A stretch of DNA of 64,000 nucleotides. Origin: Escherichia coli. Lineage in GTDB: Bacteria > Pseudomonadota > Gammaproteobacteria > Enterobacterales > Enterobacteriaceae. The position numbers and the translations under genes were made by a program. Shown in pieces: positions 4,598 to 41,512 of the stretch (within the stretch, counting starts at the first letter, position 1; the number at the start of each line of letters is the position of its first letter). The notes beneath the pieces were generated by a model. That model had not been told where the DNA came from and did no database searches. It worked only from the letters and a program-made list of their open reading frames with translations. The stretch lies in assembly GCF_030384885.1 (NCBI RefSeq), contig NZ_CP128613.1. One strand, written 5' to 3'.

Positions 4598-4811
4598 CGC
4601 GCACCTCGTGGCTGATTATGGACGGCGTTATTGGCAAAGTGGAACAAGACTCACTCCCGGGTCAGCAAACTCGAAAAATTGACGCTCCCATTATTTGTGC
4701 TTTCGTTTTTTTCTATCCGCCAATAAACCCGTTTTTTTGTTGCTATTTAGCGCCTTTGTCTTATTGACTTACTGGTAGGCTTTGCTACCAGAAATTATCC
4801 GGGAGATGAAA
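4598..4811. promoter_or_regulatory. Divergent fliF / fliE promoter region (flagellar class 2, FlhDC-dependent by established knowledge)
   Basis: 214-bp AT-rich interval between divergently oriented fliF and fliE; individual boxes not mapped. Confidence 0.5.
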
Positions 4812-5126
4812 ATGTCAGCGATACAGGGGATTGAAGGGGTTATCAGCCAGTTACAGGCTACGGCGATGAGTGCGCGTGCGCAGGAATCACTACCGCAACC
4901 GACCATTAGTTTTGCTGGGCAGCTGCATGCCGCGCTCGATCGCATAAGCGATACACAAACCGCCGCCCGCACGCAGGCAGAAAAATTCACCCTCGGCGAA
5001 CCCGGCGTGGCGTTAAACGATGTGATGACCGATATGCAAAAAGCCTCAGTTTCTATGCAAATGGGGATTCAGGTGCGTAATAAGCTGGTGGCGGCGTATC
5101 AGGAAGTGATGAGCATGCAGGTGTAG
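4812..5126 (+). CDS. fliE: Flagellar hook-basal body protein FliE
   Basis: 104-aa product [24 protein letters not shown]... from ATG at 4812; the track ORF 4782..5126 has a 10-codon upstream extension. Confidence 0.93.
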
Positions 5127-5470
5127 GTTTTGTAACCTGTTGACTATGCTTGTTTAATTATATCCGATCCCACAGCGTGGGGCATGGATGGGGCAAACTC
5201 ACTCAATTTCTGGTTTAAAATGGATACCTGATCCTGGTTGTTTTCTGCCATCCACGATCCGTAAACGCGATAAAATGTTTTGTCTTCGCTTTGCTCATAG
5301 GAAGAGTGAACTCTTTCGTTAGCCTGGGGTTCCTTCTGATCATTATTGTTCCTGCCTTTATCTCTTGCCACGCCAGAGCCCCCTGGATACACACACACCA
5401 GGATGAAAACGGTGAGTTGTGTTCAAACTGTAGTACAATTCTCTCCAGTATGAACAGGAAAGAATATGCT

Positions 5471-5803
5471 ATGAACCCTTATATTTATCTTGGTGGCGCA
5501 ATACTTGCAGAGGTCATTGGTACAACCTTAATGAAGTTTTCAGAGGGGTTTACACGGTTATGGCCCTCTGTTGGCACAATTATTTGCTATTGTGCATCAT
5601 TCTGGTTATTAGCTCAGACGCTGGCTTATATACCTACAGGGATTGCTTATGCTATCTGGTCAGGAGTCGGTATCGTTCTGATTAGTTTGCTTTCCTGGGG
5701 ATTTTTTGGCCAACGACTGGACCTGCCAGCCATCATAGGCATGATGTTGATTTGTGCCGGTGTGTTAGTCATTAACTTGTTGTCACGAAGTGCACCGCAT
5801 TAA
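5471..5803 (+). CDS. emrE: Small multidrug resistance (SMR) efflux transporter EmrE
   Basis: 110-aa product MNPYIYLGGAILAEVIGTTLMKFSEGFTRLWPSVGTIICY... inside track ORF 5291..5803; four hydrophobic segments; RBS-like aggaaag upstream. Confidence 0.85.
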   Translation: MNPYIYLGGAILAEVIGTTLMKFSEGFTRLWPSVGTIICYCASFWLLAQTLAYIPTGIAYAIWSGVGIVLISLLSWGFFGQRLDLPAIIGMMLICAGVLVINLLSRSAPH

Positions 5804-5971
5804 AAAATAATTATCCTTGAGACAACAGGAATGTAATTTGTGCATATTATGGCTAATGTTGAGGGCAACTTTATAATTATGATTGCATTTGCACGATCAT
5901 TGCGCCTTTATGCATAATGAGAGCAAGGCACATCAAATAAAATAACGATAGGTCACAACAAAGAGGTTTTT

Positions 5972-6523
5972 ATGAAAAAGCTTATCGTTTCAAGTGTATT
6001 GGCATTCATAACATTTTCTGCGCAGGCCGCAGCATTTCAGGTCACTAGTAATGAAATAAAAACAGGAGAGCAACTTACAACGTCTCATGTATTTTCTGGA
6101 TTTGGGTGTGAGGGGGGTAATACATCGCCCTCATTAACCTGGTCTGGTGCTCCAGAAGGCACCAAAAGCTTTGCCGTAACTGTGTATGATCCAGATGCGC
6201 CTACAGGCAGTGGATGGTGGCACTGGACGGTTGCTAATATTCCAGCAACGGTAACATATTTGCCCGCTGATGCAGGAAGACGTGATGGTACAAAACTTCC
6301 GACTGGTGCTGTCCAAGGCCGAAATGATTTTGGCTATGCAGGATTTGGTGGAGCATGTCCTCCCAAAGGAGATAAACCCCATCATTACCAGTTTAAAGTA
6401 TGGGCTCTAAAAACTGATAAGATTCCTGTAGATTCTAATTCCAGCGGAGCGTTAGTTGGTTATATGCTTAATGCCAATAAAATTGCAACCGCTGAGATAA
6501 CACCCGTTTATGAGGTAAAGTAG
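5972..6523 (+). CDS. ybcL: Periplasmic PEBP/RKIP-family protein YbcL
   Basis: 183-aa ORF with N-terminal signal peptide MKKLIVSSVLAFITFSAQAAAF; matches YbcL as I recall it. Confidence 0.8.
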   Translation: MKKLIVSSVLAFITFSAQAAAFQVTSNEIKTGEQLTTSHVFSGFGCEGGNTSPSLTWSGAPEGTKSFAVTVYDPDAPTGSGWWHWTVANIPATVTYLPADAGRRDGTKLPTGAVQGRNDFGYAGFGGACPPKGDKPHHYQFKVWALKTDKIPVDSNSSGALVGYMLNANKIATAEITPVYEVK

Positions 6524-6532
6524 GATAAGAGT

Positions 6533-7330
6533 ATGCTGGCAAAAGATAGGACTAACCTAAAGATTGAAGAAATACGGATGCATAAACATCATGAGATTCA
6601 CAGGGTTAAGCCTCTTATGCCAGCTTTATGTCGTATCCGTCAGGGAAAAAAAGTTATCAATTGGGAGACGCATAGTCTAACTGTTGATAATAATCAGATA
6701 ATATTATTTCCCTGTGGATATGAATTTTATATTGCGAATTACCCAGAAGCAGGTCTTTATCTTGCAGAAATGCTTTATTATCCCATTGATCTAATTGAAA
6801 AGTTCCAAAATCTTTATGCGATAACCGATCAAATTCGTAACACGACAGGTTTCTGCTTACCTCAGAATCCTGAGTTAATATATTGTTGGGAGCAACTAAA
6901 AACATCTATTTCCCGAGACTTCTCAACGCAAATTCAGGAACACTTAGCAATGGGCGTTCTACTTTCATTAGGAGCACATCATGTTAATTGTTTACTTTTA
7001 TCAGATAGTAAACAATCATTAATAAGTCGTTGTTATAACCTAATGCTATCCGAACCTGGAACAAAATGGACAGCAAACAAGGTAGCGAGATATCTCTACA
7101 TTTCTGTTTCCACATTGCATCGCCGTCTGGCAAGCGAGGGAGTAAGTTTTCAAAGTATATTGGACGACGTGAGGTTAAATAATGCGTTGTCTGCTATACA
7201 AACGACAGTAAAACCCATCAGCGAGATTGCCAGGGAAAATGGTTACAAGTGTCCTTCTCGTTTTACTGAAAGGTTCCATAATCGTTTTAAGATAACACCA
7301 AGAGAGCTAAGAAAAGCGTCCAGAGAGTAA
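6533..7330 (+). CDS. ybcM: AraC-family transcriptional regulator YbcM
   Basis: 265-aa ORF; C-terminal AraC-type helix-turn-helix region (...[41 protein letters not shown]...). Confidence 0.8.
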
Positions 7331-7339
7331 AAGTATTTT

Positions 7340-7459
7340 ATGAAGGAGCAACAGCATCGATTTTTATTTTGGAAAATAAATACGGCATACTCAACCTATT
7401 GGAGCCTGAACAATCCGGTGACTTCTGCGCTAATCGGGGACGTTTATAAGCACATATAA
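7340..7459 (+). CDS. Hypothetical 39-aa small ORF immediately after ybcM (possibly a ylcH-like small protein)
   Basis: ATG 7340 to TAA 7457-7459, MKEQQHRFLFWKINTAYSTYWSLNNPVTSALIGDVYKHI; below the ORF-track size cut-off; no independent support. Confidence 0.2.
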   Translation: MKEQQHRFLFWKINTAYSTYWSLNNPVTSALIGDVYKHI

Positions 7460-8019
7460 TTGATACTATCTTCCTCCATCACAATTTCAGAAATGCACGT
7501 GTGATTTTTTTGCATCCGGCGTTTGGACTATGTGGAGTTCAAGAGTGGGAAAGTTACAAGAGGTTGAGGGGATAATTAAAGGGATGCTTATGACATTAGA
7601 TATCCGGATAGGTACGGATATCGTTGTTATTAAATCTAGTTTATACGTTAAGATGCAGCTACAGCAGAAATTACCACTGTTAATTTTTTCATCGTGAGCC
7701 CTTTTATTTGTACTATTATTTAAAAATGATGTCACTGCACTACAAATACTCATCTAATCAATGAGATTATTTCAAGATGTAAGTTTTAGTTTCTCATTTA
7801 AATTGTGAAGCAGATCCCTCCTTTTATCTGAACTGTTTCTATTGTACACAATGCATGACTATTTTGTGAACGAATATAAATTTGGTAGTCAAATTATATT
7901 AAAGGTTGTTATTTATGATTGACTCATAATTTATTTTTTTAATTTAAATAACCTAATAATAACCATGGAGATTATTTGCATGATATTTGTTTAGACTTGT
8001 TAATGTAATTGAGGTGATT

Positions 8020-8694
8020 TTATTTAATACGCAATATAGCGCCGCTTGATATTAGTTCTATTTTTTTTTGCGTAAGATAGATGAGACAAACTGAGACGCA
8101 TAATGGTTTGCAAGGCTCTAATACTTTGATGTTGAGGATGTGATGGGGCATGTACGTGCATAGTACAATGATGTCCATGCCGGTGTAGATAATCTCCAGG
8201 CTTATCCGGTGCGCCGTAAAACCCCGTCCTTCAGGGCGGGGATATAAGGCGCGGTTTTCCACCTGACCAGGTGTTTGCTGTTGTTCAATGTATTGGCGGA
8301 TGACGGACATTGGCGCACCTCCGCAGCTACTGGCAAAATTGCCAGGACTCCACAAAACGCCTTTGTAGTAATACCTGACTGTAATATCTGGTCGATCTCG
8401 TCGCAGTAACCTACCCGATACGCCTTTGAGGCTGTTTACCAGACTGGATATCGCCAGTTTGGGAGGATAGTTAATTAACAAATGGACGTGATCTGGTTCG
8501 CCATCCATTTCAACCAGTTCAGCTTCAAAATCAGCACATACATTTGAAAAGTAAGTGCGTAGTTTTTCTGTCGCGTCATGGTCAAAAATCTGGCGTCGGT
8601 ATTTGGTGACAAAGACCAGGTGAACATGCATCAGGAAAACACAATGCCTTCCACGCCGGATATCGGTTTCTTTTTTCACAGACCAAAGTATCAT
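8020..8694 (-). CDS. tnpA: IS200/IS605-family HUH (Y1) transposase TnpA; conserved core is about aa 1-145, and the ORF continues a further ~80 codons with no stop
   Basis: HUH motif (DHVHLLINYPP), ...HVHLVFVTKYRRQ... and catalytic-Tyr region ...GGAPMSVIRQYIEQQQ align with IS608/IS200 TnpA; similarity ends near nt 8275. Confidence 0.7.
   Translation of the reverse strand: MILWSVKKETDIRRGRHCVFLMHVHLVFVTKYRRQIFDHDATEKLRTYFSNVCADFEAELVEMDGEPDHVHLLINYPPKLAISSLVNSLKGVSGRLLRRDRPDITVRYYYKGVLWSPGNFASSCGGAPMSVIRQYIEQQQTPGQVENRALYPRPEGRGFTAHRISLEIIYTGMDIIVLCTYMPHHILNIKVLEPCKPLCVSVCLIYLTQKKIELISSGAILRIK
8222..8241 (+). repeat. Left-end subterminal imperfect palindrome (hairpin) of the IS200/IS605 element
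   Basis: ccccgtcc-ttca-gggcgggg: 8-bp stem with one G:T position and a TTCA loop. Confidence 0.6.
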
Positions 8695-8701
8695 TTGACC
8701 T

Positions 8702-9910
8702 GTGAAACGATTACAGGCATTTAAATTCCAGTTAAGACCCGGTGGTCAACAGGAGTGTGAAATGAGGCGCTTCGCAGGCGCATGTCGTTTCGTTTTCAAT
8801 CGTGCTCTGGCGCTTCAGAATGAGAATCATAAGGCCGGTAAGAAATACATCCCTTACGGGAAAATGGCTTCCTGGCTGGTTGAGTGGAAAAATGCCACTG
8901 AAACGCAATGGCTTAAAGATTCGCCCTCACAGCCATTGCAACAGTCACTGAAAGACCTTGAGCGGGCTTACAAAAACTTCTTCCAGAAGCGGGCTGCTTT
9001 TCCCCGATTCAAAAAGCGGGGACAGAATGATGCATTCCACTACCCGCAGGGCGTTAAGCTCGATCAGGAAAACAGCCGTATTTTTCTGCCGAAACTTGGC
9101 TGGATGCGCTACCGGAATAGCCGTCAGGTCACGGGTGTTGTGAAAAATGTCACTGTCAGCCAGTCCTGCGGTAAGTGGTACATCAGTATTCAGACAGAAA
9201 GTGAAGTATCAACTCCGGTTCATCCTTCAGCATCAATGGTCGGGCTGGATGCTGGCGTGGCTAAACTCGCCACGCTGTCAGATGGCACAGTCTTTAAGCC
9301 TGTAAACAGTTTTCAGAAAAACCAGAAGACGCTGGCGAGACTTCAGCGACAGTTAAGCCGCAAGGTCGAATTCAGCAATAACTGGCAGAAGCAGAAACGC
9401 AAAATACAGCGACTGCATTCCCGTATCGCAAATATCCACAGGGACTACCTTCACAAAGTCACAACGACCGTCAGCAAAAACCACGCAATGATAGTCATTG
9501 AGGATTTGAAGGTCAGCAACATGTCAAAGTCAGCAGCGGGTACGGTCAGCCAGCCGGGGCGCAATGTCCGGGCAAAATCAGGTTTAAACCGTTCGATACT
9601 GGATCAGGGCTGGTATGAAATGCGCCGCCAGCTTGAGTACAAGCAGCTCTGGCGTGGCGGTCAGGTGCTTGCTGTTCCGCCAGCGTACACAAGCCAGCGT
9701 TGCGCGTGCTGTGGTCATACAGCGAAAGAAAATCGCCTGTCACAAAGTAAATTCAGATGCCAGGTATGTGGATATACAGCGAACGCCGATGTAAACGGCG
9801 CTCGTAACATTTTAGCGGCGGGGCACGCCGTTCTTGCCTGTGGAGAGATGGTGCAGTCAGGCCGCCCGTTGAAGCAGGAACCCACCGAAATGATTCAGGC
9901 GACAGCCTGA
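8702..9910 (+). CDS. tnpB: IS200/IS605-family TnpB (OrfB; RuvC-like RNA-guided nuclease family), apparently intact
   Basis: 402-aa ORF, GTG start at 8702. N-terminus [13 protein letters not shown].. resembles ISDra2 TnpB; RuvC-I (MVGLDAG), RuvC-II (IVIEDLKV), Cys4 zinc finger (CACCGH...CQVCGY) and RuvC-III ([10 protein letters not shown]) all present. Confidence 0.85.
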
Positions 9911-9970
9911 ACGTAGCAGGGATCCACGTCCTTCAGGGCGTGGAGGATGTCAACAAACAGGTTGAATTAA
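9790..9970 (+). ncRNA. Predicted TnpB-associated omega-RNA (right-end RNA): scaffold over tnpB 3' end plus right-end hairpin, guide from flanking DNA
   Basis: Inferred from the established architecture of TnpB elements; no sequence-level RNA model was fitted and the extent is approximate. Confidence 0.3.
9924..9943 (+). repeat. Right-end subterminal imperfect palindrome (hairpin) of the IS200/IS605 element
   Basis: ccacgtcc-ttca-gggcgtgg: same stem/loop layout as the left-end hairpin, including the G:T position; 14 nt after the tnpB stop. Confidence 0.6.
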
Positions 9971-10621
9971 CTCCGCGCCCTGGTTTTTGACATTACCCAC
10001 CGCGCGCGACACAGGGTGCCAGGTGAACTGGTTTGCTGGAACACAGCCACTGGCAGCAATTTCAGAGGCTTCTTTACCGCTAATCTCTTGCCGCATCCAT
10101 TCCCGCGCAGCTTCTGGCGACAGTACCAGCGGGCGGCGGTCATGAATATCTACCAGACCCTGGTCTGCTGCTGCAGTGACAATTAAAAATCCTTCGGCTT
10201 CGTCACCACGCTCAAACGGTGTGCTACCTATCGCGGCTATAAAAACAGGTTGTCCATCAGCGCGATAGATAAAATAAGGCTGTTTTTTGTCGCCTTCTTT
10301 TTTCCACTCAAACCAGCCATCGGCAAAACAGATTGCCCGACCATGTTGCCAGAGCGGTTTAAACATACGACTGGTTGCCGCAGTTTCTACGCGGGCGTTA
10401 ATCAGCGGCGGTTTATCCCACCATCCGGGAGCATATCCCCAGAAAACCGGATCCAGATGAAGGTGTTCATCACGTTCACTGAGCAGAAGAACTTTGGTTC
10501 CCGGCGCGACGTTGTATCTGCCAATAGGTTCGGGATCGTAGGGAATATCGCGTTCAATATCTTCCGCGAGAAGCGCAAGGTAATCTTCACGCGTTTGGGA
10601 TTGGGTAAAGCGTCCACACAT
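9950..10621 (-). CDS. yedK: SOS-response-associated peptidase (abasic-site processing protein) YedK
   Basis: 223-aa ORF starting MCGRFTQSQTREDYLALLAEDIERDIPYDPEP... (SRAP family, catalytic Cys2); C-terminus ...AELIQPVC sits at the IS right end. Confidence 0.88.
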   Translation of the reverse strand: MCGRFTQSQTREDYLALLAEDIERDIPYDPEPIGRYNVAPGTKVLLLSERDEHLHLDPVFWGYAPGWWDKPPLINARVETAATSRMFKPLWQHGRAICFADGWFEWKKEGDKKQPYFIYRADGQPVFIAAIGSTPFERGDEAEGFLIVTAAADQGLVDIHDRRPLVLSPEAAREWMRQEISGKEASEIAASGCVPANQFTWHPVSRAVGNVKNQGAELIQPVC

Positions 10622-10697
10622 AGCAACCTCCTGAGATCATACTGAAAAGAATAGGAGAGGGGGCGGGTAAAATCTATGTGATACAGAGGTAACGATG

Positions 10698-10722
10698 TTC
10701 CCGCTGTTGGCCACAGCGGGAA
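10698..10722. other. Perfect 9-bp inverted repeat (hairpin) between yedF and yedK
   Basis: ttcccgctg-ttggcca-cagcgggaa; no adjacent T-run, so not a canonical terminator. Confidence 0.3.
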
Positions 10723-16835: not shown

Positions 16836-18542
16836 ATGGCACAAGTCATTAATACCAACAGCCTCTCGCTGATCACTCAAAATAATATCAACAAGAACCA
16901 GTCTGCGCTGTCGAGTTCTATCGAGCGTCTGTCTTCTGGCTTGCGTATTAACAGCGCGAAGGATGACGCAGCGGGTCAGGCGATTGCTAACCGTTTTACT
17001 TCTAATATTAAAGGCCTGACTCAGGCGGCCCGTAACGCCAACGACGGTATCTCCGTTGCGCAGACCACTGAAGGCGCGCTGTCCGAAATCAACAACAACT
17101 TACAGCGTATTCGTGAACTGACGGTTCAGGCCACTACAGGGACTAACTCCGATTCTGACCTGGACTCCATCCAGGACGAAATCAAATCCCGTCTCGACGA
17201 AATTGACCGCGTATCCGGCCAGACCCAGTTCAACGGCGTGAACGTACTGGCAAAAGACGGTTCGATGAAAATTCAGGTTGGTGCGAATGACGGCCAGACT
17301 ATCACTATTGATCTGAAGAAAATTGACTCTGATACGCTGGGGCTGAATGGGTTTAACGTTAACGGCAAAGGTACTATTGCGAACAAAGCTGCTACAGTCA
17401 GCGATCTGACCGCTGCTGGTGCAACGGGAACAGGTCCTTATGCTGTGACCACAAACAATACAGCTCTCAGCGCTAGCGATGCACTGTCTCGCCTGAAAAC
17501 CGGAGATACAGTTACTACTACTGGCTCGAGTGCTGCGACCTATACTTATGATGCGGCTAAAGGGAACTTCACCACTCAAGCAACAGTTGCAGATGGTGAT
17601 GTTGTTAACTTTGCAAATACTCTGAAACCAGCGGCTGGCACTACTGCATCAGGTGTTTATACTCGTAGTACTGGTGATGTGAAGTTTGATGTAGATGCTA
17701 ATGGCGATGTGACCATCGGTGGTAAAGCCGCGTACCTGGACGCCACTGGTAACCTATCTACAAACAACGCCGGCATTGCATCTTCAGCGAAATTGTCCGA
17801 TCTGTTTGCTAGCGGTAGTACTTTAGCGACAACTGGTTCTATCCAGCTGTCTGGCACAACTTATAACTTTGGTGCTGCGGCAACTTCTGGCGTAACCTAC
17901 ACCAAAACGGTAAGTGCTGATACTGTTCTGAGCACAGTACAGAGTGCTGCAACGGCTAACACAGCAGTTACTGGTGCGACAATTAAGTATAATACAGGTA
18001 TTCAGTCTGCAACTGCGTCTTTCGGTGGTGCGAATACTAATGGTGCTGGTAATTCGAATGACACCTATACTGATGCAGACAAAGAGCTCACCACAACCGC
18101 ATCTTACACTATCAACTACAACGTCGATAAGGATACCGGTACAGTAACTGTAGCTTCAAATGGCGCAGGTGCAACTGGTAAATTTGCAGCTACTGTTGGG
18201 GCACAGGCTTATGTTAACTCTACAGGTAAACTGACCACTGAAACCACCAGTGCAGGCACTGCAACCAAAGATCCTCTGGCTGCCCTGGACGACGCTATCA
18301 GCTCCATCGACAAATTCCGTTCATCCCTGGGTGCTATCCAGAACCGTCTGGATTCTGCGGTGACTAACCTGAACAACACCACTACCAACCTGTCTGAAGC
18401 GCAGTCCCGTATTCAGGACGCCGACTATGCGACCGAAGTGTCCAACATGTCGAAAGCGCAGATTATCCAGCAGGCCGGTAACTCCGTGCTGGCAAAAGCC
18501 AACCAGGTACCGCAGCAGGTTCTGTCTCTGCTGCAGGGTTAA
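16836..18542 (+). CDS. fliC: Flagellin FliC (568 aa; H type not assigned, not the K-12 allele)
   Basis: Conserved N-terminus MAQVINTNSLSLITQNNINKNQSALSSSIERLSSGLRINSAKDDAAGQAIANRF and C-terminus ...SKAQIIQQAGNSVLAKANQVPQQVLSLLQG; Thr/Ala/Gly/Ser-rich central region. Confidence 0.95.
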   Translation: MAQVINTNSLSLITQNNINKNQSALSSSIERLSSGLRINSAKDDAAGQAIANRFTSNIKGLTQAARNANDGISVAQTTEGALSEINNNLQRIRELTVQATTGTNSDSDLDSIQDEIKSRLDEIDRVSGQTQFNGVNVLAKDGSMKIQVGANDGQTITIDLKKIDSDTLGLNGFNVNGKGTIANKAATVSDLTAAGATGTGPYAVTTNNTALSASDALSRLKTGDTVTTTGSSAATYTYDAAKGNFTTQATVADGDVVNFANTLKPAAGTTASGVYTRSTGDVKFDVDANGDVTIGGKAAYLDATGNLSTNNAGIASSAKLSDLFASGSTLATTGSIQLSGTTYNFGAAATSGVTYTKTVSADTVLSTVQSAATANTAVTGATIKYNTGIQSATASFGGANTNGAGNSNDTYTDADKELTTTASYTINYNVDKDTGTVTVASNGAGATGKFAATVGAQAYVNSTGKLTTETTSAGTATKDPLAALDDAISSIDKFRSSLGAIQNRLDSAVTNLNNTTTNLSEAQSRIQDADYATEVSNMSKAQIIQQAGNSVLAKANQVPQQVLSLLQG

Positions 18543-40730: not shown

Positions 40731-41512
40731 AACCTGTTCCTTATTCTGTGAACTTCAGGTGACATTAAAGCTTTACTCCTAATGGAGAATCGACGCAATC
40801 CCAACTCAGTCAAACAGGTAAATATTAGTGTGATTATTAGTAAATACAATTAATCAATCACTCTCGGTGATCATATGATTTCAACTGTAATTATAAGAAA
40901 ATATTGTACTGATTCTCCATATTAAACAAGTGGTTAATATATCTAAAACATTTTGTTAACATTAAGTGGGTTGTTGCCTGTCTTTGCCTTTAATCAGTTT
41001 ATTGTGTTGTAAGTGCCTGTTTGTAAATAGATTAACTGATTTTGGATTTGACCAATTATTTATAGCAGATGATTATTTACGGTGAGTTATTTTAACTGTG
41101 CGAAACATCTCATTTCGATTATTACGGTTTCACTTTTGCTTACCATCGGTGTGAAAAACTTTTTAACAGATTGAAATACACCCAAAACAAAAGTATGACT
41201 TATACATTTATGTTAAGTAATTGAGTATTTTATGTGATCTGCATCACACATTATTGAAAATCGCAGTACCCCTCCGTTGTATGTGCGTGTAGTGACGAGT
41301 ACAGTTGCGTCGATTTAGGAAAAATCTTAGATAAGTGTAAAGTACCCCCTCTATTTGTAAGGACCTATTAAACCCAATAAGGTGGGGGCTGTTTTATTGC
41401 AGCTTATCGCAACTATTCTAATGCTAATTACTTTTTACCGGGGCTTCCCGGCGACATCACGGGGTGCGGTGAGACCGCATAAAAATAAAGTTGGTTATTC
41501 TGGGTGGGAATA
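40731..41512. promoter_or_regulatory. flhDC master-operon control region (class 1 promoter with multiple regulator inputs by established knowledge); no IS element inserted here
   Basis: About 780 bp AT-rich non-coding region upstream of flhD containing a consensus CRP site. Confidence 0.6.
41233..41248. promoter_or_regulatory. CRP-binding site in the flhDC promoter
   Basis: TGTGA-tctgca-TCACA, a perfect match to the CRP half-site consensus. Confidence 0.7.

What the first reader, a model, noticed from the sequence alone, without database searches (positions are those of the whole stretch)
5127..9949. Accessory segment between fliE and yedK: emrE-ybcL-ybcM plus an IS200/IS605 element
Seen in sequence: between two conserved core blocks lie EmrE, a PEBP-family periplasmic protein, an AraC-type regulator, about 870 bp of AT-rich non-coding DNA and a tnpA/tnpB element; emrE and ybcL are only 168 bp apart. 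From memory of K-12: these three genes sit in the DLP12 prophage with the recombinase gene ybcK between emrE and ybcL, while the fliE-yedK interval there holds yedL and phage-remnant pseudogenes. Inference: this interval is a recombination hotspot and the module is horizontally acquired cargo. That an efflux pump and an AraC regulator share it with an IS-borne nuclease makes it the only part of the window where gene content is unpredictable.
Basis: partly seen in the sequence, partly recalled or inferred. Interest (0 to 1): 0.55.

Follow-up and report, generated by a model that had tools for sequence, protein, structure and literature searches.

The report
Decayed prophage remnant plus IS609
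The DNA between fliE and yedK is the worn-down remnant of a lambda-like prophage that kept three cargo genes (emrE, ybcL, ybcM), with an IS609 insertion sequence inserted later; it is a common, already annotated E. coli variant and nothing unusual.

Summary

- **Origin.** The segment has 38.5% G+C against about 54% in the flanks. Positions 5395-8030 are colinear with the ren-to-porin part of the K-12 cryptic prophage DLP12 and of complete lambdoid phages. Three stretches are missing: ybcK, ybcN to Q, and almost all of the porin gene.
- **The "AT-rich non-coding DNA".** It is a Q-gene tail, the first 13 codons of the porin gene and the porin's upstream region.
- **The IS.** IS609 (8206-9953) is a separate, later insertion. 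It sits 3' of TTAT, exactly inside the yedK stop codon, and adds one Cys to YedK. Its tnpB is intact. Its tnpA has lost its stop codon and is annotated as a pseudogene.
- **Frequency.** Of 5426 complete E. coli genomes, 48% carry emrE next to fliE, in three alleles: this one (about 20%), an ST131-type deletion derivative (about 20%), and a CFT073-type allele that has the porin and no IS (about 8%). The rest have the K-12 state.

The locus is a routine, RefSeq-annotated polymorphism, so interest is low.

The parts
5127..5273 (-). Stretch downstream of fliE shared with K-12. It corresponds to part of K-12's intG' pseudogene (cryptic prophage PR-G). Homology to K-12-type genomes ends at 5273.
   Evidence: blastn against K-12 ends at 5273. 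About 2700 genomes stop at this same point and have 'integrase' annotated there. The integrase call itself is weak: phrog_216 E = 0.13 for the window ORF and 0.022 for the K-12 ORF.
5274..5394 (.). 121-bp spacer of unknown origin between the shared stretch and the start of the DLP12-like homology.
   Evidence: It has no match in K-12 or in phages. It is present in all emrE-state genomes.
5471..5803 (+). emrE, an SMR multidrug / quaternary-cation efflux transporter of 110 aa with Glu14 present.
   Evidence: NF042984 at 240.5 bits, above the cut-off of 226. It has 2 differences from K-12 EmrE and is identical to the CFT073 protein.
5972..6523 (+). ybcL, a periplasmic PEBP / Raf-kinase-inhibitor-like protein of 183 aa with a signal peptide.
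   Evidence: NF007330 at 401 bits, above the cut-off of 277. 96.2% identical to K-12 YbcL. Residue 99 is Ala here, Val in K-12 and Thr in CFT073.
6533..7330 (+). ybcM, an AraC-family transcriptional regulator of 265 aa.
   Evidence: AraC-type C-terminal domain hits at E about 1e-18. 91.3% identical to K-12 YbcM. PGAP names it ybcM.
7547..7645 (+). Remnant of the 3' end of the phage Q antiterminator gene (quuD-like).
   Evidence: 82% identical to DLP12 L009 11242-11342, which is the 3' end of quuD.
7652..7692 (-). First 13 codons (MKKLTVVISAVAA) of a deleted nmpC/ompD-type phage porin gene. CFT073 has 1222 bp more between window positions 7651 and 7652.
   Evidence: blastn against CFT073; translation; CFT073 annotation.
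7693..8205 (.). Orphaned AT-rich (about 31% G+C) upstream region of the deleted porin gene. In IS-free genomes it ends directly at the yedK stop codon.
   Evidence: Positions 7652-8030 are 80.6% identical to the region upstream of nmpC in DLP12. Positions 7652-8206 are 96.6% identical to CFT073, where this stretch abuts yedK.
8202..8205 (+). TTAT, the IS609 target site immediately 5' of the left end.
   Evidence: All five IS609 copies at five different loci are preceded by TTAT. The empty sites in CFT073 and K-12 read TTAT|CAAACAGG.
8206..9953 (+). IS609 (IS200/IS605 family), 1748 bp. It has subterminal hairpins at 8222-8242 and 9924-9944, and its right end reads TCAA.
   Evidence: It is a simple insertion relative to CFT073. 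It is 98% identical to IS609 copies at other loci. The hairpin pair is family D2.
8020..8694 (-). tnpA (HUH/Y1 transposase) reading frame. The normal TAG stop is changed to CAG, so the frame runs out through the left end to 8020, giving 224 aa instead of 143 aa. The HUH motif and the catalytic Tyr are retained.
   Evidence: Alignment with intact copies. Alignment with IS608 TnpA, in which Tyr127 matches RQ-Y. PGAP marks it as a pseudogene.
8702..9910 (+). tnpB (insQ), an RNA-guided endonuclease of 402 aa, intact.
   Evidence: NF040570 at 382.8 bits. E = 1e-53 to ISDra2 TnpB (8h1j). In the one alignment printed, to a designed TnpB-like nuclease (9yyg), the RuvC D/E/D motifs and both CxxC pairs are present. 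No lesion in 9 of 9 copies; dN/dS 0.19-0.63.
9760..9953 (+). Presumed omega-RNA (reRNA) scaffold spanning the 3' end of tnpB and the right end. The sequence that would serve as guide is the flank from 9954 onward (CAAACAGGTTGAATTAAC...).
   Evidence: Inferred from how the TnpB family is known to work. Fold z-score is -2.7. There are sub-threshold Rfam hits to HgcC and sot0042.
9950..10621 (-). yedK (SRAP / abasic-site sensor), 223 aa instead of 222. The IS split its TGA stop codon (TG|A), and the IS end supplies Cys plus a new TGA.
   Evidence: The C-terminus reads ...ELIQPVC here and ...ELIQPV in K-12 and CFT073.

Best explanation
The interval is a heavily eroded DLP12-like lambdoid prophage lodged between fliE and yedK. 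What survives is the accessory ("moron") cargo that such phages carry between ren and the nin/Q region.

**Cargo genes.** EmrE is a proton-coupled SMR exporter of quaternary cations. YbcL is a periplasmic PEBP-family protein. YbcM is an AraC-family regulator.

**Deletions.** ybcK, the ybcN-to-Q block and, in this lineage, the phage porin gene have been deleted. That leaves a Q-gene tail, 13 porin codons and the porin's AT-rich upstream region as the 875-bp "non-coding" stretch.

**The IS.** Independently and later, an IS609 element inserted by the family's single-strand "peel-and-paste" route. It landed 3' of a TTAT that overlaps the yedK stop codon. yedK stays open, one Cys longer.

**Present state of the IS.** tnpA has decayed at this locus (stop-loss here; premature stop or frameshift in the other lineages examined). 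tnpB stays intact. By the known rules of the family, TnpB with its omega-RNA should recognise TTAT followed by CAAACAGGTTGAATTAAC, which is the IS-free allele of this same site.

**Shown versus inferred.** Shown: gene identities, colinearity, exact breakpoints, the empty site and allele frequencies. Inferred: expression of the cargo genes, the order of the deletions, and activity of TnpB and its omega-RNA.
For: - Gene identities pass curated cut-offs.
- G+C is 38.5% against about 54% in the flanks, and GC3 is about 0.30 for ybcL and ybcM.
- Colinear blocks with DLP12: 5395-5812, 5830-7537, 7547-7645 and 7652-8030.
- The same order occurs in the complete phage PhiR70_1.
- CFT073 carries the same segment at 98% identity, with a whole porin gene and no IS. 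This defines a 1222-bp deletion at 7651/7652 and a clean 1748-bp insertion at 8206-9953.
- All five IS609 copies are preceded by TTAT and end in TCAA. The empty site reads TTAT|CAAACAGG in both CFT073 and K-12.
- YedK gains one Cys.
- tnpA is damaged in 5 of 5 copies at this locus, while tnpB is intact in 9 of 9 copies.
- The TnpB catalytic motifs are present.
- Census: 2616 genomes with emrE next to fliE, against a sum of about 1065 + 1111 + 456 = 2632 for the three alleles.
Against: - No att-like direct repeats flank the segment.
- The integrase remnant next to fliE is supported only weakly by HMM (E = 0.02-0.13), and otherwise by the database annotation.
- The 147 bp next to fliE and about 17 bp next to yedK are shared with the K-12 state. 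It is therefore unresolved whether the two states are separate integrations or replacement of the interior by recombination.
- The 121 bp at 5274-5394 have no identified origin.
- No expression or activity data were available.
Confidence: 0.9

Rival explanations
1. The emrE-ybcL-ybcM block is ancestral E. coli backbone at this site. On this view the K-12 state (yedL, yedN', intG') is the derived replacement, and lambdoid phages such as DLP12 picked the module up from the chromosome.
For: The block sits next to fliE in 48% of complete genomes and in several lineages: the type strain ATCC 11775, CFT073, ST131 and O111:H8. Both states share the same 147-bp left junction and the same 17-bp right junction.
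Against: The homology to phages goes beyond the three genes. It includes a Q-antiterminator tail, a phage porin and the porin's upstream region, in phage order. G+C and GC3 are far below those of the flanking core genes. The block is 8-20% diverged from DLP12, as expected for a sister prophage and not for a recent capture.
Confidence: 0.06
2. The IS609 element (TnpA/TnpB) mobilised or delivered the cargo genes, so that the IS and the cargo form one mobile unit.
For: The IS lies at the right edge of the variable interval.
Against: 456 genomes have the cargo without any IS. The IS ends are exact and identical to solo IS609 copies at unrelated loci: ydcO, yeaR, yajI and a TetR-family gene. The cargo lies outside the left end. 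IS200/IS605 elements move only the DNA between their left and right ends.
Confidence: 0.02
3. The solo tnpB at this locus is no longer merely a selfish relic. On this view selection maintains it as an RNA-guided nuclease that cuts incoming IS-free alleles of the yedK end, which would protect the linked segment from replacement by recombination.
For: tnpB is intact in 9 of 9 copies with dN/dS 0.19-0.63, while tnpA at the same locus carries a stop, a frameshift or a stop-loss in 5 of 5. The 100%-identical genome has only this one IS609 copy (places_in_record = 1). The predicted target, TTAT plus the guide sequence, is exactly the K-12 and CFT073 allele.
Against: This is the ordinary predicted behaviour of any TnpB, not a sign of domestication. 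The ST131-type allele has lost most of tnpB and is just as frequent (1111 genomes). Copies at this locus are no closer to one another than to copies elsewhere, which fits gene conversion or recent spread. No expression or cleavage data exist.
Confidence: 0.1

Closest known systems
Cryptic lambdoid prophage DLP12 (Qsr') of E. coli K-12: the emrE-ybcK-ybcL-ybcM ... quuD-nmpC section
   Same: Same genes in the same order and orientation. Nucleotide identity is 92% for emrE, 89.6% for ybcL-ybcM, 82% for the Q tail and 80.6% for the porin 5' end and upstream region. Both are defective.
   Different: This one lies at fliE-yedK, not at argU. It lacks ylcJ and ybcK (2.1 kb), ybcN to most of quuD (1.8 kb) and the porin body. 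It has no int, xis, lysis or structural genes, and no IS3 or IS5. It carries IS609 at its right edge.
The fliE-yedK locus of CFT073 and the E. coli type strain (the UPEC-type ybcL locus)
   Same: Same position and the same emrE-ybcL-ybcM genes at 98% identity. The EmrE proteins are identical.
   Different: CFT073 keeps the ompC/nmpC-like porin gene and has no IS609, and its yedK has the native stop codon. YbcL residue 99 is Thr there and Ala here. A review states that a single residue decides whether YbcL suppresses neutrophil migration (PMC4810123). That this residue is position 99 (mature residue 78) is my recollection and was not verified.
IS609 (IS200/IS605 family; K-12 insQ/ydcM copy next to ydcO)
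   Same: 98% identical over 1.75 kb. It has divergent tnpA and tnpB, subterminal hairpins, a TTAT target, a TCAA right end and no target duplication. As in K-12, tnpA is defective and tnpB is intact.
   Different: The insertion site is inside the yedK stop codon. The tnpA lesion here is a stop-loss only, whereas the K-12 copy also has a premature stop.
K-12 cryptic prophage remnant PR-G (intG') at the same site
   Same: It shares the 147 bp next to fliE and about 17 bp next to yedK.
   Different: Its interior is unrelated: yedL, yedN' and the rest of intG', with no DLP12 homology.

Membership tests
EmrE (SMR family) | Score above the curated NCBIfam cut-off over the full 110-aa length | tested here: met
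   NF042984 at 240.5 bits against a cut-off of 226, covering 1-110 of 110.
EmrE (SMR family) | Membrane-embedded Glu14 needed for proton/substrate coupling | tested here: met
   The sequence MNPYIYLGGAILAE has Glu at position 14. The role of this residue is from established knowledge.
YbcL / PEBP (Raf-kinase-inhibitor-like) | Score above the curated equivalog cut-off, and an N-terminal signal peptide | tested here: met
   NF007330 at 401.2 bits against a cut-off of 277. A hydrophobic leader ending in AQAAA is read directly in the sequence.
AraC/XylS regulators (YbcM) | C-terminal double helix-turn-helix domain, and orthology to K-12 YbcM | tested here: met
   Residues about 150-262 match the C-terminal domains of HilD, HilC and AraC at E = 1e-18 to 1e-12. 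No equivalog cut-off is reached. 91.3% identical to K-12 YbcM over 265 aa.
IS200/IS605 family insertion sequence (IS609) | HUH / single-Tyr transposase TnpA | tested here: met
   NF033573 at 142.7 bits. The HUH motif (HVH) and the Tyr aligned with IS608 Tyr127 are present. The stop codon is lost, so activity is uncertain.
IS200/IS605 family insertion sequence (IS609) | Subterminal hairpins at both ends, no terminal inverted repeats, no target-site duplication | tested here: met
   Hairpins CCCCGTCC-TTCA-GGGCGGGG at 8222-8242 and CCACGTCC-TTCA-GGGCGTGG at 9924-9944, in direct orientation. The empty site shows no duplication.
IS200/IS605 family insertion sequence (IS609) | Insertion 3' of a fixed short target sequence | tested here: met
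   TTAT precedes the left end at 5 of 5 independent loci.
TnpB RNA-guided endonuclease | RuvC Asp-Glu-Asp triad and a zinc-finger CxxC...CxxC | tested here: met
   In the printed alignment to the designed nuclease 9yyg, gLDaG, iEDl and nADvNg align with the RuvC motifs, and CaCC...CqvC is present. The ISDra2 TnpB structure 8h1j matches at E = 1e-53 but its alignment was not printed.
TnpB RNA-guided endonuclease | Omega-RNA transcribed from the tnpB 3' end and right end, and cleavage of target DNA next to the TTAT motif | not testable with these tools
   Only a structured right-end region (z = -2.7) and sub-threshold hits to HgcC and sot0042.
Lambdoid (DLP12-like) prophage remnant | Colinearity with a lambdoid phage genome beyond the cargo genes | tested here: met
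   ren end, emrE, ybcL, ybcM, Q tail, porin 5' end and porin upstream region all lie in phage order.
Lambdoid (DLP12-like) prophage remnant | Integrase gene or remnant at one edge, and att direct repeats | tested here: inconclusive
   The integrase-like fragment is weak (phrog_216 E = 0.13 and 0.022), although it is annotated intG or 'integrase' in K-12-type genomes. No boundary direct repeats were found.

The most novel reading that the evidence does not exclude
At this locus tnpA has decayed and tnpB is the only IS609 copy in the genome. The intact TnpB with its omega-RNA could be kept by selection as an allele-specific nuclease. Its predicted target, TTAT followed by CAAACAGGTTGAATTAAC, is exactly the IS-free yedK end found in K-12-type and CFT073-type strains. 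It could therefore cut incoming DNA that would replace the segment, and so help keep alternative fliE-yedK alleles apart in the species.
Probability: 0.08. Interest if true: 0.5.

Novelty: already known. Interest (0 to 1): 0.1.

Why it matters
It matters little beyond correct annotation.

- The interval shows how a lambdoid prophage decays to its cargo genes, and how an IS200/IS605 element can sit in a stop codon without disrupting the gene.
- The allele census (this type about 20%, ST131-type about 20%, CFT073-type about 8%, K-12-type about 52%) could serve as a simple lineage marker.
- The ST131-type allele has lost a functional yedK.
- YbcL has been reported as a UPEC factor that suppresses neutrophil migration. 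The allele here (Ala at residue 99) is neither the K-12 nor the CFT073 form.
- None of this opens a new question.

Tried and rejected
The only meaningful repeat is the pair of IS hairpins.
- **Rfam search of 4600-10700:** nothing reached a gathering score. There were only weak hits to HgcC, sot0042 and RAGATH-18 at the tnpB 3' end.
- **Loss of the catalytic Tyr in tnpA:** I first read the Tyr-to-Asn change in SPG(Y/N)F as loss of the catalytic residue. Alignment with IS608 TnpA shows that the catalytic Tyr127 aligns with RQ-Y, which is retained. I withdrew that idea.
- **Promoter and terminator scan of 5100-8250:** no more sites than in shuffled sequence.
- **Integrase identity of the ORF next to fliE:** only marginal HMM support.
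- **Literature:** no paper describing the fliE-yedK polymorphism was found. Neither original YbcL paper is held, so the identity of the critical YbcL residue rests on my memory.
- **Searches I chose not to run:** the large genome contigs and metagenome scans, the protein-database searches and structure prediction. The question was settled without them.


Full report
**Observation.**
- fliE 4812-5126 (+)
- emrE 5471-5803 (+)
- ybcL 5972-6523 (+)
- ybcM 6533-7330 (+)
- a tnpA frame on the minus strand, 8694->8020
- tnpB 8702-9910 (+)
- yedK 9950-10621 (-)

The emrE-ybcL gap is 168 bp. The distance from ybcM to the IS is 875 bp.

Curated HMMs confirm EmrE (240.5 bits, cut-off 226), YbcL (401 bits, cut-off 277), an IS200-type TnpA, a TnpB, FliE and YedK. 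The third protein reaches only AraC-type domain hits by HMM, but it is 91.3% identical to K-12 YbcM.

G+C is 38.5% over 5274-8205, against about 54% for fliF, fliE and yedE. GC3 is 0.30 for ybcL and 0.31 for ybcM.

A RefSeq chromosome, E. coli 2013C-4282, is 100% identical over 4600-10700 and is annotated with exactly these genes.

**What the segment is.** A blastn comparison with the K-12 cryptic prophage DLP12 gives four colinear blocks:

| Window | Matches in DLP12 | Identity |
|---|---|---|
| 5395-5812 | end of renD and emrE | 92% |
| 5830-7537 | ybcL, ybcM and the start of ylcH | 89.6% |
| 7547-7645 | last 100 bp of the Q antiterminator gene quuD | 82% |
| 7652-8030 | first 41 nt of the porin gene nmpC and its upstream region | 80.6% |

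Two stretches of DLP12 are missing here: ylcJ-ybcK (about 2.1 kb) and ybcN to most of quuD (about 1.8 kb).

A complete lambdoid phage, PhiR70_1, has the full order ren-EmrE-YbcK-YbcL-YbcM-ybcN-ninE-ybcO-rusA-ylcG-Q-OmpD(-)-S-R-Rz. The three genes are therefore accessory cargo of lambdoid phages, and the interval is a decayed relative of DLP12.

The "AT-rich non-coding DNA" resolves into three parts:
- the tail of the Q gene;
- the first 13 codons of the porin gene, read on the minus strand from 7692 to 7652 (MKKLTVVISAVAA);
- the porin's orphaned upstream region.

**Alleles of the interval.**
- **CFT073.** It matches 4600-7651 at 98%, then has 1222 extra bp holding a complete ompC/nmpC-like porin gene. 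It then matches 7652-8206 and runs straight into yedK at 9954. This single comparison defines both a porin deletion and a clean IS insertion in the window.
- **KUEC74, the ST131-type allele.** It differs from the window arrangement by two deletions, 7663-8322 and 8985-10184. It is left with a truncated tnpB and a truncated yedK.
- **K-12.** It shares only 4600-5273 on the left and 9954 onward on the right. Its interior holds yedL, yedN' and intG'. K-12 and CFT073 also share about 17 bp just beyond the yedK stop codon.

**Census in 5426 complete E. coli genomes.**

| Feature (at least 80% of the query covered) | Genomes |
|---|---|
| fliE-emrE junction | 2616 (48%) |
| Whole window arrangement | 1065 |
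| ybcM-to-tnpA junction | 1026 |
| tnpB-yedK junction | 1102 |
| ST131-type deletion junction | 1111 |
| CFT073-type IS-free junction | 456 |

The three alleles sum to 1065 + 1111 + 456 = 2632, which agrees with the 2616 genomes that carry the fliE-emrE junction. Most of the remaining genomes end their homology at window position 5273-5274, and many of the sampled ones have "integrase" annotated there, as in K-12.

The arrangement is thus a common minority allele, not the majority state. The locus is nevertheless thoroughly sampled and annotated.

**The IS.** I aligned the window element with IS609 copies at four unrelated loci: a TetR-family gene, yajI, yeaR-yeaQ and ydcO.
- The ends are fixed. 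Every copy is preceded by TTAT and ends in ...GGATGTCAA.
- With the empty sites of CFT073 and K-12 (GGCTTAT|CAAACAGG), the element is 8206-9953, or 1748 bp.
- There is no target duplication.
- Direct-orientation subterminal hairpins lie at 8222-8242 and 9924-9944.
- On the yedK strand the empty site reads ...CCT GTT TGA TAA. The insertion splits the stop codon as TG|A, and the IS end supplies T TGA. YedK therefore becomes ...ELIQPVC, 223 aa.

**tnpA.** Intact copies encode 143 aa. Here the TAG stop has become CAG, and the frame runs through the left end to 8020, giving 224 aa. The HUH motif and the Tyr aligned with IS608 Tyr127 remain. A Tyr-to-Asn change in SPGYF is at a non-catalytic position. 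The other copies at this locus carry a premature stop at codon 96 or a frameshift.

**tnpB.** It is full-length in all nine copies examined, with dN/dS of 0.19-0.63. The printed alignment, to a designed TnpB-like nuclease (9yyg), shows the RuvC Asp/Glu/Asp motifs and the two CxxC pairs. ISDra2 TnpB (8h1j) matches at E = 1e-53.

**Omega-RNA (inferred).** By the family's known mechanism, an omega-RNA from the tnpB 3' end and right end would carry the flank CAAACAGGTTGAATTAAC as its guide. It would target TTAT-flanked IS-free alleles. This was not tested. The only support is a structured right-end region (z = -2.7) and sub-threshold Rfam hits to HgcC and sot0042.

**Rest of the window.** Against K-12, the 64-kb window differs only at three places:
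- this interval;
- the central variable part of fliC (17363-18262);
- the absence of K-12's IS1 upstream of flhD.

**Open points.**
- No att-like repeats bound the segment.
- The integrase identity of the fragment next to fliE is weak by HMM (E = 0.02-0.13).
- The 121 bp at 5274-5394 have no identified source.
- It is unresolved whether the K-12 and emrE states arose by separate integrations or by replacement of the interior.

**Verdict.** The feature is an ordinary prophage remnant plus a known IS, already annotated in more than a thousand RefSeq genomes. Interest is low.

The most novel reading left open is that the solo TnpB is selectively maintained as an allele-specific nuclease. It has no positive evidence beyond an intact ORF beside a decayed tnpA. 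It is weakened by the equally frequent ST131-type allele, which has lost most of tnpB.

Noticed in passing
window 9950-9955: IS609 sits exactly inside the yedK stop codon (TG|A). The IS end supplies a Cys codon and a new TGA, so YedK is 223 aa instead of 222 aa in about 1100 genomes.
   Followed up: yes
window 6266-6268 (YbcL codon 99): YbcL residue 99 (mature residue 78, if the leader is 21 aa) is Ala here and in the ST131-type strain, Val in K-12 and Thr in CFT073. A review says a single residue separates the neutrophil-suppressing UPEC form from the K-12 form (PMC4810123). That position 99 is that residue is my recollection and is unverified.
   Followed up: partly
L003 6434-7142 (KUEC74, ST131-type allele): In 1111 genomes two deletions have fused a truncated tnpB to a truncated yedK. 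These strains therefore lack an intact YedK (SRAP abasic-site protein).
   Followed up: partly
window 17363-18262: The central part of fliC has no megablast match to K-12. This is ordinary H-antigen allelic variation.
   Followed up: no
window ~41205-41212: The IS1 (IS1H) that K-12 MG1655 carries upstream of flhD is absent here. The two K-12 flanks join with an 8-bp overlap.
   Followed up: no
window 4600-10700: Only 3 of 5426 complete genomes are at least 99% identical over this stretch; most are 95-99% identical. The source lineage is therefore sparsely sampled. The 100%-identical genome (2013C-4282) shows only one place matching the IS, so this is its sole IS609 copy.
   Followed up: partly
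window 5144-5398 (-): The small minus-strand ORF next to fliE matches PHROG 27762 (unknown function) at E = 1e-10, much better than it matches any integrase family. K-12's intG' ORF gives the same hit.
   Followed up: no
IS609 copies in L008, L010, L012 and L013: The same premature stop (codon 96, GR*LRR) occurs in tnpA copies at different chromosomal loci (ydcO and fliE-yedK). tnpB copies at this locus are also no closer to one another than to copies elsewhere. Both observations suggest gene conversion between IS609 copies.
   Followed up: no
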